This document shows, one piece after another, positions 4,855 through 58,220 of a stretch of 64,000 nucleotides of DNA. The notes below the pieces were generated by a model. The model made no database searches. It saw only the letters and a program-made list of their open reading frames with translations, and was not told the origin of the DNA. The stretch lies in contig OZ024766.1 of NCBI GenBank assembly GCA_964016885.1, forward strand, positions 1,178,001 through 1,242,000. Reading direction: 5' to 3'. How positions within the stretch are numbered: the first letter of the stretch is position 1; the number at the start of each line of letters is the position of its first letter. This DNA comes from Eledone cirrhosa (lineage: Eukaryota). Position numbers and translations under genes: made by a program.

Positions 4855-4968
4855 CTATATATATATATCTATATAGATATATACATATAGATATATACAT
4901 ATAGATATATACATATATATATATATATAATATATAAGATCAAAAGATGGTTAAAGGAGTTCCATGTA

Positions 4969-5035
4969 TTTTATTATGCGCATTTCAAAAACAAACATCA
5001 TCATGCAATAATATTTGTGTTTTCATCAGATAAAA
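4969..5035 (-). ncRNA. Minimal type I hammerhead ribozyme (family A, left arm of palindrome)
   Basis: Reverse complement reads UUUUAU CUGAUGA [stem II] GAAA UGCGCA UA AUAAAA; core intact, stem I UUUUAU/AUAAAA. Confidence 0.85.
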
Positions 5036-5146
5036 CAGGAGAACATGATATGAAGGCTAAAAAACACTTGTTGATAGTGCAGTTTTAAATCAACATCAAC
5101 TGCACTATCCACAAGTGTTTTTTAGCCTTCATATCATGTCCTCCTG

Positions 5147-5213
5147 TTTTATCTGATGAAAACACAAATATTATTGCATGATGATATTTGTTTTTGAAAT
5201 GCGCATAATAAAA
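5147..5213 (+). ncRNA. Minimal type I hammerhead ribozyme (family A, right arm)
   Basis: UUUUAU (5147-52), CUGAUGA (5153-59), long AU-rich stem II, GAAA (5196-99), palindromic stem III AUGCGCAU, AUA triplet with cleavage predicted after 5207, AUAAAA. Confidence 0.88.
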
Positions 5214-5644
5214 TACATGGAACTCCTTTAACCATCTTTTGATCTTATATATTATGTATACTCCAGTCCTACAAACTGTAGAGTGCTTCTTATCTGATAT
5301 CTGCATTGCTTTATTGTACTACAATAAAACTCACCTCCTACATATATATATATATATATATACACATATATATATATATATATATATGAATACATAAATA
5401 TATATATATTATACATATATATATATATATGAATAAATAAATATATATATATTATATATATATATGTATACATATATATTATATATATATATATATATGC
5501 ATATATATGTACATATATTTATACATACATGTACATATATTTTTACATACATTTATATATATATATACATAAATATATATACACATACATATATAAATAT
5601 ATACCCATATATAAATATATACCCATATATATATGAATATATAC

Positions 5645-28669: not shown

Positions 28670-29527
28670 TTCTTATATATCATATATATATATATGTGTG
28701 TGTATATATATATATGATATATATAATTGTTTCTACTTTTAGCACAAGGCCAGCAATCCCCCAGTACATTACTGGTACTTTACTTTATCAAACTCTGTAA
28801 GGATGAAAGGCAAAGTTAACCATGGTGGGATTTGAACTCAGAACGTAAAGGGCCGTAACTCTATGCTGCAAACATGGTGTCTGACCCTCTACTGATAGGG
28901 AAAATTATTGTGTACAGTGCTCAGTTACACTACAATATATGATTCTGACACTGTTTATGGCAAAACATTCTTTTTGAGTCTGTCCAGGTGTTTTATCATC
29001 ATCATAGTTTAATATCCATCTTCTACGCTAGCATGGGTTAGACGATTTTGTCCCATTTGATGCGGGAAATCGTTGGGAGACCATGTCTCGCTCGTACGGA
29101 AGTGTCTCTGGCAGGTTTTTTTACAGCTGGATGCCCTTCCTAACACCAACCACATTTACAGTGTGGACTGGGAGCCTTTTTACCGTGTCTCCTACACGAC
29201 CACCTTACAGTGTGAACTGGGACCCTTTTTACCGTGACTCCCTACCTGTTAGTTTGCCTGCTATCCCACTACACCTCGTGTAACCAAGATCTGCATTGTG
29301 TAGATTTTATTGTAAATTTCCAGGTCGAATAACACATCGCATTCATCCTTAGGAGTTACTAATAACACCAACCATGGACATGACAATGAAACAACAAACC
29401 AAACATGTACCTGTCGAGACAGAAACCAGTGATACCTACTAAATAATTGTCTGGCTATAAACCTAATCTAGAAGTGTGAGGTCCAAACCCATAATTCCAG
29501 ACACATATACATCCGGTTCACATACAC

Positions 29528-29730
29528 CCATCTCTGAAACCATACATCGGGGTCACATACGCAACATTGAAGGCTCATCTCTGCAACCATACATCGGGGT
29601 CACATACGCAACATTGAAGGCCCATCTCTGCAACCATACTTCGGGGTCACATACACAACATTGAAGGCCCATCTCCGCAACCATACATCGGGGTCACACA
29701 CACAACATTCAAGGCCCATCTTTGCAACCA
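29528..29730. repeat. 47-bp tandem repeat, about 4 copies
   Basis: aaggcccatctctgcaaccatacatcggggtcacatacrcaacattg. Confidence 0.85.
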
Positions 29731-30664
29731 CAAGAGCACCTTCAATGACAGGAACAAGCAATCATGCACCAGACCAGTGGACTTTGTATAGAGACTCAGA
29801 CTTAGAAACCGGGTTCAGGTTGTACTGGAGGTTGGTTAAGCATGCAGCACTACAATCTCTGGCTTTGAATGGCCAAAGATGCATTATGCTAAGGGATACC
29901 GGGTCCCTCAATTATACACTACAACAAGGAATGTTGGTGTTATCAAAAATATATTCAAGAAGACAACTATCAGATATGAGAAAGACTTTAATTCCACCTA
30001 AAAATAAATTTTTAAAATGGAAAGTAATATTTAAAGACTGTAGGGTTAAGGGTTTCCTTGTGATGTTAGTGGACAATAAGTTTTTATTTGTAAGATGAAG
30101 GACATGTTGGATTGCATAGTTCAAAGGTTTCTCTCTAGAGTGTGAACTTGGTTGGTCTTGGGGATCCAGCCATATCAGTTGCTTCTGACAGGACCTGCTG
30201 GAAGGAGGGTTTGGGTGTCCCCAGTTGCTTCTGATAGGACCTGCTGGAGGGAGTGTTTGGGTGACCCCAGTTGCTTCTGACAGGACACACTCGAAGAAGT
30301 GTTTGAGGATTCTGACCCCCACGACCCTCTCAGGTATAAGTGGGTGAAGAAGACCTCTTAACATCCCGTAATGATTTAGCAGAAATTATCTAAAATTAGG
30401 TTTGTTAGTAGACCCCAACTGAAGCAAGATGGTTAGATAACATCCATGAGCTTGGCTGGTCACACTTGGAGAATGCAGCAGGATCAGTTGGAGACTATTG
30501 CTTCTGACAGGACCCACTGGAAGAAGTGTTTGAGGATTCTGTCCCAAACGACTCTCTCAGGAATAAGTGGGCAAAGAAAGGAGCTTTTTCCACCAGTGTG
30601 TGTTCCTTTATACTTAGTTAAATCACTGCTTCAGACAAAATATTTCGCACACATTGCTCAATGT

Positions 30665-46762: not shown

Positions 46763-48031
46763 AACGCCATAGAAAAGGGGACAACTCAGTTTCACATCAT
46801 ATCTTGAAAATATATTTTCTTAAAATTTATGTATATATTTAAAAGGAAGAGGTTATGTAGCTGGTCCTGGTAAAATAGATTCCCAGGCTATGTAGCCGGT
46901 CATGATAAAATAGACTCAAAGGCTACAGAGCTGGTAAGAGTGTCAGATGCCATGAGTTGCGGCCCTTTACGGTCTGAGTTGAGACAATTCGAAATCTTTT
47001 CCACCATAAATTGTTAAAAAACTAAAATCATTTAGTTATCCACTGGTAACGTATGTTAGACTTTAGTTACATACACACATCTACAGGTAAATATATAGAT
47101 ACAGACAACAGGTGTAAACCTACATATATATATACACCTACAGGTAAATATATAGACATATACAGACCACAGAGGTGTAAACCTACATATACATACACCT
47201 ACAGGTAAATATATAGACATATACAGACCACAGAGGTGTAAACCTACATATATATACACCTACAGGTAAATATATAGACATATACAGACAACAGAGGTGT
47301 AAACCTACATATATATACACCTACAGGTAAATATATAGACATATACAGACAACAGAGGTGTAAACCTACATATATATACACCTACAGGTAAATATATAGA
47401 CATATACAGACAACAGAGGTGTAAACCTACATATATATACACCTACAGGTAAATATATAGACATATACAGACAACAGAGGTGTAAACCTACATATATATA
47501 CACCTACAGGTAAATATATAGACATATACAGACCACAGAGGTGTAAACACATATATACATAAACACATATACTCATACATATCCATAGAAACATTGTACA
47601 AAATAATTATTACATACACACACATATATGCAATGAATGAGGAAGGAAGGGGCTGGTGAAACGCTATAGCGATACGTGTGTTGTCTTTCTTTAGGGTTTA
47701 CCGGCTACACAGCCTACTATTATTATTGTTAACTGAATAAGATAAGATTTTTAGATTAAAAAACAACTGAGAAATCTTTTTATCAACCAAGAACGAAAAT
47801 TTATCATTGACAGTCTATATACAATAAAAAACGAAACAGCTTTCACAATATATAAACAACCTTCTGGTTATTGAACCAACCAACAGGAAATTTATAATAA
47901 ATTGAATTGAAAACCAACAGGTGCGTGTGTTTTTATTGGCAGCATGACCCTCCCAAAGTATAACTGTGTGTATATATATATATATTAAAATACAAATATT
48001 AATAAAATAGATGTTCTTTTGATCTATTAAA

Positions 48032-48082
48032 TTTTATTATACATATTTCAGAGGTACAACAGTACGTCCTCATCAGACAAAA
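48032..48082 (-). ncRNA. Minimal type I hammerhead ribozyme (family C, left arm)
   Basis: Reverse complement reads UUUUGU CUGAUGA GGACGUAC UGUU GUACCUCU GAAA UAUGUA UA AUAAAA. Confidence 0.85.
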
Positions 48083-48179
48083 TATAATGATACATGACAT
48101 ACCCTGAGATGTTAAATGGAGACTACCTTGATTAAATCTTAACCATTTAACATCTCAGGGTATGTCATGTATCATTATA

Positions 48180-48230
48180 TTTTGTCTGACGAGGACGTAC
48201 TGTTGTACCTCTGAAATATGTATAATAAAA
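48180..48230 (+). ncRNA. Minimal type I hammerhead ribozyme (family C, right arm)
   Basis: UUUUGU CUGACGA GGACGUAC UGUU GUACCUCU GAAA UAUGUA UA AUAAAA; cleavage predicted after 48224; differs from the left arm only at the variable N7 position. Confidence 0.85.
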
Positions 48231-48874
48231 TTTAATTGATCAAAAGAACATCTATTTTTTTAATATTAATAACTCTAGAAAATTATTAACTGTAGAGTGC
48301 TTCCAATCTACTGTAAAACTCATTATTTGATGTACTCATTGAATCTTGTTTAACTCTTTAATATATATATATAGGAAAATGTTCAATACCCCGACGGCAG
48401 AACTCAAGCCGTTTCGACGGCTATTTCTGGACTTCGTAGTCCAGAAACAGACGTAGATACGGCTTAAGCTCTGCCGTCGGGGTCCTGAACCTTTTCCTAT
48501 TACCCACTCTACTACCCTAATTATTGAGTACTCTGGTGCGTTAAGGTCCCCCTGGTTCCTTACCACACTTCCTTCGTTATATATAATATATATATACACA
48601 AATTTGCGTATATATTTATATATATATACAAACGTGTATATATATATATATATATAAATACACAAACGTGCATATATATATATATATACACTTAAACGGG
48701 GTTATATATTTATTTATATACTAAAACGTATATATATGTATATATATACACACACACAAACGGGGTTATATATTTATTTATATACTACAACGTATATATA
48801 TGTGTATATATATACACACACACGAACGTGTGTTTGACTTAATGTTCACTTCTAGTAGTCCTTTGTGCAAAACC

Positions 48875-55581: not shown

Positions 55582-56402
55582 GACGTGATATAATACACCC
55601 AGTACACTCTGTAATGTGGTTGGTAATAGGAAGGACATCTGGCCGTAGACACTATGCCAAGATAGAACACATAAATGGAAGGTGTTTATCCTTCACAATA
55701 CACATTTTGACATCTTGAAAAATGCTAGAAATAGTAGCAAAACATTCTCAATATGTCTTAGATAATGCTAATTATAGTGTTGTAAAAATTACACTTTACT
55801 ATATATTCAATATATGACGTTCTCGTTGTAATCTACATACTCTAATGTGCATCTCTGACAATTTTCAATACAAAATATAAATTATTGAGAAAGTTATGAG
55901 GAAATAAATGTAGAAGCCTAACTATTTTTGAATCGAAATCAATTTTACTGCCAAATATTAGTCACGTAAGATTTACTTCCCTTTGAACATTACGTAATTT
56001 TTTTTTTTACCCTGCGCTAGGAATCGCACCTGGTCAGCCTACATGCTAGAAATAACAGCCCAATGTTCCTCTTTGTTTCGTCTTAACTTTCTTAATAATT
56101 CATTTTTTGTTCGTTTGTTTTTTTGCAACTAAATATATTTTATTAATAAAAATCAAAACAATGGTAAACAAATCTCAAATAACAACAACACTCTTTTGTG
56201 AGGCTAAACTCCACCAAACAGGGAGTATGTTCAGTTATTATTACAACAATATGACCCTCCCAAGTATAACAATATTTGTTTCGACACACGATTTCATATC
56301 AAAAACCTCGCAAAACAAATATATATTTTATATATATATATTCCAAGGCTCTGATACCATCAACACTATAAACACAGAGCTGGCATATCTAAGAACTGAC
56401 TA

Positions 56403-56458
56403 ACTGCCTGATGAGGTCATAGCCATTCAATGGCTATCATCGAAATATATATAGCAGT
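56403..56458 (+). ncRNA. Minimal type I hammerhead ribozyme (family D), intact
   Basis: ACUGC CUGAUGA GGUCAUAGCCAU UCA AUGGCUAUCAUC GAAA UAUAUA UA GCAGU; 5-bp stem I, long stem II, palindromic stem III AUAUAUAU; cleavage predicted after 56453. Confidence 0.9.
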
Positions 56459-56679
56459 AAATAAAGGATTATAAGTTCATGCAATTGACTTATGTTTCGT
56501 CACTATATATATATATATATATATACACACACATAGGGAAAAAGAGAGGATTTACGAATTTCAATGGCTTAAGAAAGAAAGCTAGCTCTATTTGTTTATT
56601 GTGACAAGATACGAATCTGTGGCTAAAGAATAAAATAGATCAACGTTAATGGCGGAGAAAGGTGAAAAAATTTTTGAAA

Positions 56680-58220
56680 TTTTTAATTTAACAACATGGA
56701 GATTATTTCTTTGGTTGTTTAGTAAAATATAAGAAGACAACAAATTAATTACATGTGAAGAGGGTAAGTTTAGATTTACTTCAAGTCTATAATAATTGTT
56801 TCAACTTTAGGCACAACGCCAGTAATTTGTCTATAATAATGTGTAATAATTGTTTCTACTTTAGGCACAAGGCCAGCAATTATCCAGTACATTACTGGTA
56901 CTGTATTTTATCGACCCCGTAAGGATGAAAAGCAAAGTTAACCTGGGCGGGATTTGAACTCAGATCGTCCCTTTACGATCTGAGTTCAAATCCCGCCCAG
57001 GTTGACTTTGCCTTTCATCCTTACGGGGTCGATAAAATACAGTACCAGTAATGCACTGGTAATTTGCTGGCCTTGTGCCTAAAGTAGAAACAATTATTAC
57101 ATAATGGTTTCTAGTTATGATACAAGGCCAATAATTTTTTTTTTTGGGGGGGGGGGAGTTGATTAATTCGAACCAGTGTATTACTGGTACTTCATTTTAT
57201 CGACCCCCGTAATGATGAAAGGCAAAGTTAACTTCGATGGGATTTGAACTCAGACCGTAAAGGGTTGTAACTCTATGCTGCGACTTTCTACCGATACTGC
57301 CAATCCACCACCTTATTGTTTGTAAATAATAGAATTATGTGAACCTTTCAACGAAGGGCCTTGTTTCAGGAGCTACCAGGAGACAAGTCCCCTCCACTTT
57401 TTCAGGAACGGGGCACAAACCCTCTTTTGTCTCCCCTAACTTTTCCCAATTTATTCAAACGTCTATGTTTTATATTTTGTTTATTTGATATAATAAATTC
57501 TTTTTAAACTTTTTTTTTTTTAATATCTGAACTTTATTTGAATATATAAAATTTAATTAGTGTAAACTGTTACTTATGTGATAGGGTCCGGGGAAAATCT
57601 CCGTAAGTAATACTAACATGCCCCTTTAAGGACCAACAAATGTTGGTTTGTCTCCCTCACATTTTGAAGGCAAACGAGACCCCTGCTTTCAATGATACAG
57701 TAATTATAGGATTTTGAGCTTTTAAAAATGATGAAAAGAATCGCCTTTATTGATAAATAAATTATATACAAGTAAAAATACTGGGCGACCACAAAAATAC
57801 TCCTTGATTTCAAATACTTATAATATGAAAACTTAAATGAATATTCTTACAATATTGGTGGCTACAGTTGTATAAGCTACCAAAGGTTCTTGTGGTATTG
57901 GTTGACGTCATAGAACAGGCATGGGCAACTCTTTTTCGAGAAGCGGGCCACATGAGATGTAGCTCATCATCAGGTGGGCCACATGAGATATGGCTCATCA
58001 TCAGGAGGGCCACATGAGATGTGGCCCATCATCAGGTGGGCCACATGAGATATGGCTCATCATCAGGAGGGCCACATGAGATGTGGCTCATCATCAGGTG
58101 GGCCACATGAGATGTAGCTCATCATCAGGTGGGCCACATGAGATGTAGCTCATCATCAGGAGGGCCACATGAGATGTGGCTCATCATCAGGTGGGCCACA
58201 TGAGATGTGGCTCATCATCA
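56680..58220 (+). repeat. Inverted duplicate of 26627-27752 (ZF1 5' exon and intron start)
   Basis: Identical short ORF translations at 26948-27148 and 57613-57813; shared donor at 56764. Confidence 0.92.
56844..57099. mobile_element. Head-to-head SINE palindrome (arms about 120 bp)
   Basis: ...gggatttgaactcagatcgt|cccttt|acgatctgagttcaaatccc... Confidence 0.88.

What the first reader, a model, noticed from the sequence alone, without database searches (positions are those of the whole stretch)
47995..48267. Second, unrelated divergent hammerhead palindrome
Seen: arms of about 125 bp around a 23-bp spacer, each with a complete core (CUGAUGA on minus, CUGACGA on plus), stem II GGACGUAC/GUACCUCU and self-complementary stem III AUAUGUAU. 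The sequence is unrelated to family A but the architecture is the same. Inference: inverted ribozyme pairs are a recurring product of the insertion mechanism, or a non-autonomous hairpin element class.
Basis: partly seen in the sequence, partly recalled or inferred. Interest (0 to 1): 0.75.

Follow-up and report, generated by a model that had tools for sequence, protein, structure and literature searches.

The report
Penelope stub copied from its promoter
This mirror-image pair of ribozyme motifs is the short remnant of one insertion of a common Penelope-type jumping gene, a layout already described; its copies so often begin at one base behind a TATA box that they likely mark where the element's RNA starts.

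Summary
The palindrome is real: 125-bp arms, 3 mismatches, 23-nt spacer, one type I hammerhead per arm. It is not a separate hairpin element. It is the end of a Hydra-clade Penelope-like retroelement (PLE) with at least 1,359 end copies; longer copies carry RT and GIY-YIG upstream. The insertion spans 47982-48361, between TA/TG runs. Breakpoints vary (53 distinct among 58 compact palindromes). 77 of 81 head-to-head pairs join a short end to a long end bearing a 98-nt tail, as here. Head-to-head PLE copies with a one-sided tail are published, including a Hydra element with hammerheads on both strands, and this scan noted the layout before in other families of this genome. Added here: 5' ends pile up at one base (window 48122; 20 of 64 copies in a fresh sample), the A of a TCA initiator 31 nt behind a TATA box and 5' of the ORF. 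Short palindromes are therefore likely run-off cDNAs primed from both ends of a cut near the mRNA's 5' end. Fold-back of one cDNA fits poorly. Family A looks like a sister family, not unrelated. No RNA data or cleavage test; ribozyme activity is unshown.

The parts
47982..48361 (.). Whole insertion: two head-to-head 5'-truncated copies of the terminal repeat (pLTR) of a Hydra-clade PLE
   Evidence: (row L001: minus arm r-48..+89, gap 2, plus arm r-69..+187)
47982..48119 (-). Left arm, from the family's short end (r+89) back to r-48
48031..48083 (-). Type I hammerhead motif, core CUGAUGA from 48076, predicted cut after 48038
   Evidence: activity not tested
48120..48121 (+). 2-nt filler (AG) at the inversion junction
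48122..48361 (+). Right arm, from the inferred transcription start (A+1, r-69) to the long end (r+187); private 14-nt deletion near 48267
48179..48231 (+). Type I hammerhead motif, core CUGACGA 48186-48192, predicted cut after 48224
   Evidence: activity not tested
48268..48361 (+). Tail present on one arm only (98 nt in the family); in tandem copies it continues into the 5' UTR and ATG of the ORF
47965..47981 (.). Left (TG)n(TA)n target flank
48362..48373 (.). Right (TA)n target flank

Best explanation
The palindrome is one insertion of a Hydra-clade Penelope-like retroelement, made of two 5'-truncated copies of its hammerhead-bearing end joined head to head, and it likely arose when both ends of a cut in a TA run primed reverse transcription near the 5' end of the element's RNA. 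Shown: family membership, variable junctions, two fixed 3' ends used one per arm, TA targets, shared variants between arms, and a pile-up of 5' ends at one base. Inferred: the RNA starts at that base (TATA at -31, TCA initiator); the two fixed ends are internal RT start sites whose TTTAATAT words pair with the nicked (TA)n; one cDNA ran off the RNA's 5' end (right arm), the other stopped 21 nt short (left arm); the two cDNA ends were joined by microhomology or filler. The hammerheads are likely passengers in the stub: it lacks the TATA box, and read-through RNA is predicted to lock both into one 125-bp hairpin.
For: Copies: 483 exact matches to a 33-nt ribozyme word, 587 to a 3' word, 1,359 to the +1 word. 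L035 and L031 show inverted end, RT, GIY-YIG, ~1.8-kb 3' UTR and sense hammerhead. ORF motifs RWR, SDKT, YRDD, CxCx5C, CxxC, CxH match the Hydra diagnosis (PMC8557442 section 11). Of 212 arms, 86 end at +89 and 89 at +187. 77 of 81 divergent pairs are short+long (p 1e-18 against 50:50); 158 of 171 exact ends are followed by (TA)n; arms share 52 variants against 5 (max 11) for shuffled partners. 53 distinct breakpoint pairs in 58 compact palindromes; 27 overlap, 3 blunt, 28 filler. 5' ends: 49 of 208 in -75..-66 (4.9 per nt) against 0.08 per nt upstream and 0.69 downstream. Fresh sample: 20 of 64 copies start exactly at A+1 (counted by eye); TATAWA at -31/-30 in 30 of 39 read-through copies. 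In 3 tandem copies the long end runs on about 60 nt to the ATG. In 57 directly joined pairs the short arm reaches further 5' in 29, the long arm in 14, tie in 14.
Against: No RNA, cap or cleavage data; the start site is inferred from DNA alone. A strong RT stop or an RNA processing site at the same base would give the same pile-up. Family A shows a similar pile-up at TCA but no TATAAA at -31 (by eye). An extra G before A+1 (cap copy) is ambiguous: 6 G, 5 T, 10 C among 21 untemplated cases. Shared variants could come from later arm-to-arm conversion; 268 variants are unshared, and a few pairs differ at sites that mark subfamilies (L166, L174, L058, L080, L202), which may mean two templates or two insertions. 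46 of 212 arms had no detected partner and 8 neighbours were not divergent. No pair in the hammerhead shows a two-sided change and the hammerhead is not the lowest-energy monomer fold (-1.6 against -7.3 kcal/mol). Samples lean to young copies on contigs C1 and C2. No protein tree against the published Hydra set was built.
Confidence: 0.8

Rival explanations
1. A discrete non-autonomous hairpin element (MITE-like or retrozyme-like) that moves as a palindrome.
For: 5 of 58 compact palindromes share the breakpoint pair -69/-67 and 2 share -69/-68; PLE proteins can act in trans on pLTR-flanked DNA (PMC3846280, passages).
Against: 53 distinct junctions of 58; the repeated ones sit at the inferred start site and occur with either arm as the longer one (rows L087, L024, L189 against L067); lengths run from 205 nt to over 6 kb; no tandem array here; the stub has no TATA box.
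Confidence: 0.05
2. Self-priming or fold-back: one cDNA, or an antisense RNA as proposed in PMC3846280, snaps back and copies itself.
For: Arms share variants; a 7-bp natural hairpin spans -75..-56 in the young subfamily; the published model explains head-to-head geometry.
Against: Fold-back of one cDNA needs the tail-bearing arm to be made first and reach furthest 5', yet the short arm reaches further in 29 of 57 pairs and in 6 the long arm starts beyond +60 with little or no overlap; the pile-up lies at the edge of the hairpin loop, not at its base; the hairpin is lost in the oldest subfamily while TATA and TCACT stay. The antisense-RNA version was not tested directly.
Confidence: 0.1
3. Same insertion mechanism, but the pile-up at 48122 is an RT pause or RNA processing site, not a transcription start.
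For: No cap evidence; family A lacks a canonical TATA at -31; 39 of 64 copies read through the site.
Against: TATA at -31/-30 is kept while the sequence between it and TCACT changes among subfamilies; breakpoints are about nine times rarer per base upstream than downstream, as expected if one template class ends there; TATA plus TCACT was noted in a rotifer pLTR.
Confidence: 0.2
4. Assembly fold-back artefact.
For: No read or contig in the four laid runs spans the stretch, but they show fixed differences from it and are short.
Against: The arms differ at 3 bases, by a 14-nt deletion and by a one-sided tail, and obey the same short+long rule as 76 other pairs.
Confidence: 0.01

Closest known systems
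Hydra clade of C-terminal EN+ Penelope-like elements (Craig et al. 2021, PMC8557442; seen: passages, section 11, supplement files S1/S2 and parts of the protein file and Fig. S7), e.g. Hydra-1_Obim, Penelope-13_HM
   Same: RT then GIY-YIG; RW[K/R], DKT, CxCx5C, CxxC, CxH; (TA)n targets; sense hammerhead near the 3' end; inverted 5'-truncated copy; tail at one end. Penelope-13_HM is listed with an inverted copy and hammerheads on both strands.
   Different: Not Hydra-1_Obim itself (different hammerhead sequence). RWR rather than RWK. About 1.8-kb 3' UTR makes it longer than the typical <3 kb. Tail 98 nt, not 30-40. The paper's passages give no count of end pairing or of 5' ends.
PAc, Poseidon element of Anolis, in vitro (Frangieh et al. 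2024, PMC11167929; seen: main text, parts 1-2 of 4)
   Same: Both strands cleaved and extended; two internal RT start sites bounding the tail; AT-rich targets; hammerhead cleavage not needed for insertion.
   Different: There the start sites lie 111-118 nt into the ORF; here both lie in the 5' UTR and carry TA-like words matching the target.
Adineta vaga Penelope families (Arkhipova et al. 2013, PMC3846280; seen: passages)
   Same: Head-to-head pLTRs with palindromic junctions; TATA plus TCACT initiator in the pLTR; optional tail.
   Different: That paper favours self-priming on an antisense template; the end and breakpoint counts here favour priming from both target ends.
Minimal and short-stem-III PLE hammerheads (Cervera and de la Pena 2014, PMC4209133; seen: parts 1-2 of 4)
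   Same: Type I topology, long stem II, palindromic stem III; pairs on opposite strands 100-700 bp apart were reported in Schistosoma.
   Different: The young subfamily here has G-U instead of G10.1-C11.1; older ones keep G-C.
Animal non-LTR retrozymes (bioRxiv 10.64898/2026.07.22.740005; seen: part 1 of 5)
   Same: Type I hammerhead, PLE origin.
   Different: Retrozymes are tandem direct repeats without coding capacity; this stub is inverted, single-unit and part of a coding family.

Membership tests
EN+ Penelope-like element | Single ORF with PLE-type RT and C-terminal GIY-YIG endonuclease linked to this end | tested here: met
   absent from the stub itself, present in longer copies; Pfam gave no match at cut-off, so identity rests on motifs and on likeness by eye to Hydra-1_Obim
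EN+ Penelope-like element | pLTR in partial tandem and inverted 5'-truncated copy | tested here: met
   tandem in L155, L157, L077; 81 divergent pairs
EN+ Penelope-like element | Tail at one end only | tested here: met
   77 of 81 pairs short+long; length 98 nt rather than 30-40
Hydra clade | RWK motif, DKG changed to DKT | tested here: met
   RWR in L145 and L150; DKT in L145, L143, L150
Hydra clade | CxCx5C linker; CxxC and CxH at the EN end | tested here: met
   L146 has all three, L145 the linker; no CX2-5CxxC in 4 of 4 ORFs
Hydra clade | (TA)n insertion and canonical hammerhead | tested here: met
   158 of 171 ends; core intact in 150 of 168 arms
Hydra clade | Phylogenetic placement with published Hydra proteins | not tested
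   published sequences were only read in the supplement; no tree was built
Neptune clade | CX2-5CxxC linker zinc finger | tested here: not met
   definition
Type I hammerhead ribozyme | Core CUGANGA, GAAA, UH with stems I-III | tested here: met
   97.9% of cells paired across 13 distinct copies; one-sided changes keep pairs; a 12-nt insertion falls in loop 2
Type I hammerhead ribozyme | Compensatory two-sided changes | tested here: inconclusive
   0 of 19 pairs; copies too alike
Type I hammerhead ribozyme | Self-cleavage | not testable with these tools
   needs an assay; monomer fold predicted weak, stem III self-duplex -2.2 kcal/mol
Non-LTR retrozyme | Tandem direct repeats of a non-coding hammerhead unit | tested here: not met
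   single inverted pair; coding family

The most novel reading that the evidence does not exclude
The short hammerhead palindromes of Penelope-rich genomes are the PLE counterpart of retroviral strong-stop DNA: one RT-endonuclease complex cuts both strands of a TA run, primes at two fixed sites in the 5' UTR of one mRNA, and both cDNAs run off its capped end. Their junctions would map PLE promoters and RT start sites to the base from assemblies alone, and would settle the origin of head-to-head copies in favour of two-ended priming over antisense self-priming.
Probability: 0.5. Interest if true: 0.55.

Novelty: new member of a known kind. Interest (0 to 1): 0.33.

Why it matters
As an object it is ordinary: one of more than a thousand stubs of a known class. 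Its use is as a record of mechanism. How PLEs make head-to-head copies is still open in the papers read. The near-strict pairing of a short with a long end, the shared variants between arms, and the pile-up of 5' ends at a TATA/initiator site give a model with base-level predictions (RNA start at A+1, RT starts at +89 and +187) that the existing in vitro PLE assay and CAGE could test. It also warns that such hairpins, which score weakly as microRNA precursors, are transposon remnants.

Tried and rejected
Rfam found no hammerhead: none among the 150 listed of 259 window-wide hits nor among 14 local hits. The repeat finder was swamped by TA repeats. Pfam and PDB sequence searches did not name the ORF at cut-off (best GIY-YIG E 0.039, on a different element in L037). 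My first label 'Neptune' (note) was dropped after the motif check. An early reading that the hammerhead is antisense to the ORF was wrong: that ORF belonged to the inverted partner. A splice acceptor before the pile-up (TTAG/G) was rejected as not conserved. Pile-up at the ribozyme cut site: not seen. Cap-derived G: ambiguous. The automatic read-through classes were misled by the local hairpin, so starts at A+1 were counted by eye. Most 'diagnostic' discordances lie at +76..+85, an AT-rich end prone to alignment error, and were not used. Sequencing runs: no RNA holder listed; four laid runs hold related copies and do not span the locus; neither is used as evidence. Family A DNA alignment alone is borderline (score 61, shuffles 34 +/- 6, max 66 of 1,000). 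Paper searches listed nothing whose title or abstract start points to PLE 5' ends piling up at a start site; only six papers were opened, subscription papers are missing, and supplements other than that of PMC8557442 were not read.

Full report
Observation. The palindrome is as described: 125-nt arms at 47995-48119 and 48143-48267 with 3 mismatches and a 23-nt spacer. A motif scan of both strands of the window found five hammerhead-like motifs: 48186 (+), 48076 (-), the family A pair at 5153 (+) and 5029 (-), and 56408 (+). The predicted cut after 48224 is right. Rfam did not report a hammerhead.

Family. The window lies in a 3.0-Gb, 1,796-contig animal genome; a cephalopod host is my guess from composition and one Argonauta hit. 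The arm is a dispersed repeat: 483, 587 and 1,359 exact matches to three words of 30-33 nt. Positions below are relative to G8 of the core (r0 = window 48191). Longer copies lead upstream through about 1.8 kb of 3' UTR to a GIY-YIG endonuclease and an RT in the same sense as the hammerhead (L035, L031). Open frames reach 750 aa. Motifs RWR, SDKT, YRDD, CxCx5C, CxxC and CxH, without the Neptune finger, match the Hydra clade (PMC8557442 section 11). That paper's supplement lists Penelope-13_HM with an inverted 5'-truncated copy and hammerheads on both strands, and one octopus family with a different hammerhead. Opposite-strand hammerhead pairs 100-700 bp apart were already reported (PMC4209133). 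So the layout is known.

Breakpoints. From the 162 of 202 then-held loci with coordinates entered (L123-L162 left out), 212 distinct arms reaching the 3' region were mapped: 83 divergent pairs within 7 kb, 46 singles, 8 other adjacencies. Two pairs in a duplicated segment (L082) were dropped, leaving 81 pairs and 208 arms. 3' ends fall at +89 (86 arms) or +187 (89 arms). 77 of 81 pairs join one short with one long end; 158 of 171 exact ends are followed by (TA)n. The window copy obeys this: short end at 47982, long end at 48361. Among 58 compact pairs there are 53 distinct breakpoint pairs, with 27 overlaps, 3 blunt joints and 28 fillers. In 69 pairs with at least 40 nt of overlap the arms share 52 variants against 5 for shuffled partners, with 268 unshared. 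That points to one source element per insertion, or later conversion.

The pile-up. 5' ends are not random: 49 of 208 lie at -75..-66, 20 at -69 exactly, with 0.08 per nt upstream and 0.69 downstream. In 60 new regions picked by the +1 word, 20 of 64 copies start exactly there (by eye). Base -69 is the A of TCACT, and TATAAA begins 31 nt before it. TATAWA sits at -31/-30 in 30 of 39 read-through copies while the sequence between varies among subfamilies. In three tandem copies the long end continues about 60 nt to the ORF's ATG. The inferred mRNA therefore reads: +1, hammerhead, short site, long site, ATG, ORF, 3' UTR, second pLTR. Priming in the 5' pLTR gives cDNAs of at most 158 or 256 nt that run off the RNA's 5' end; priming in the 3' pLTR gives long copies. 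The window's right arm is a complete run-off copy (48122-48361); its left arm stopped at -48. A TATA/TCACT pair was noted in a rotifer pLTR; the Drosophila Penelope promoter is TATA-less (PMC2377424, passages). Family A shows the same short/long ends and a pile-up at a TCA, without a canonical TATA (by eye).

Mechanism. PAc in vitro cuts and extends both strands from two internal sites and does not need hammerhead cleavage. Both fixed ends here carry TTTAATAT, which could pair with a nicked TA run (inference). Fold-back of a single cDNA would make the tail-bearing arm the longest at the 5' side; instead the short arm reaches further in 29 of 57 pairs, the long in 14, 14 tie, and 6 barely overlap. 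Two-ended priming followed by end joining fits best. It is inferred from DNA only.

Ribozyme. The core is intact in 150 of 168 arms, and in 67 of 81 from loci fetched by a word outside it. Subfamily changes keep pairs on one side and a 12-nt insertion falls in loop 2, but no pair changes on both sides. The monomer fold is weak, as for PLE motifs thought to work as dimers. Only 3 of 208 5' ends lie near the cut site. Both arms of L154 carry the same core mutation, which fits insertion without cleavage, or conversion. Read-through RNA of the palindrome is predicted to be one long hairpin that hides both motifs.

Family A. It shares stem I, a 16-nt tail word and end behaviour; 5 of its 30 loci hold pieces matching this family's protein, two at 49-50% over the endonuclease (contiguity not checked). 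It looks like a sister family, though the DNA alignment alone is borderline.

Earlier notes of this scan describe the same head-to-head layout and two-ended priming for other families in this genome. I reached the PLE reading before seeing them, and they are not counted as support. Look-ups by this sequence and by promoter words returned nothing.

Verdict. Real, ordinary in kind, a new family of a known clade. The one addition is the pile-up at a likely transcription start, which makes the origin of such palindromes testable. Interest 0.33.

Noticed in passing
window 4930-5340: Family A palindrome: same short/long end rule, (TA)n flanks, 5' pile-up at a TCA, endonuclease pieces in the flanks of some copies; likely a sister Hydra-type PLE family.
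   Followed up: partly
window 48372-48570: A second, smaller inverted repeat of another abundant family (4,905 first-look candidates) abuts the right TA run; possibly another PLE-type stub, no complete hammerhead core seen.
   Followed up: partly
window 47816-47962 and 56253-56272: End of a further repeat family (ending near a GGGAGGGTCAT word on the minus strand) sits beside TA runs here, in L035 and beside family A copies L208 and L230; several TA-targeting elements seem to cluster.
   Followed up: no
window 56402-56460: Single type I hammerhead motif (core at 56408) with a TATAAA about 40 nt upstream, ending in a TA run; a third family.
   Followed up: no
window 29406-29809: Weak, broken match to a PLE GIY-YIG endonuclease.
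   Followed up: no
window 56840-57100: Another near-perfect palindrome, about 260 bp, of a common repeat without a hammerhead core in the scan.
   Followed up: no
L143, L144, L150: Older subfamilies carry a 12-nt insertion in hammerhead loop 2 that extends stem II; many older copies keep the canonical G10.1-C11.1 pair.
   Followed up: partly
L071 and L082 (contig C1): Two neighbouring palindromes of this family are duplicated together 330 kb apart, a segmental duplication or assembly duplicate.
   Followed up: no
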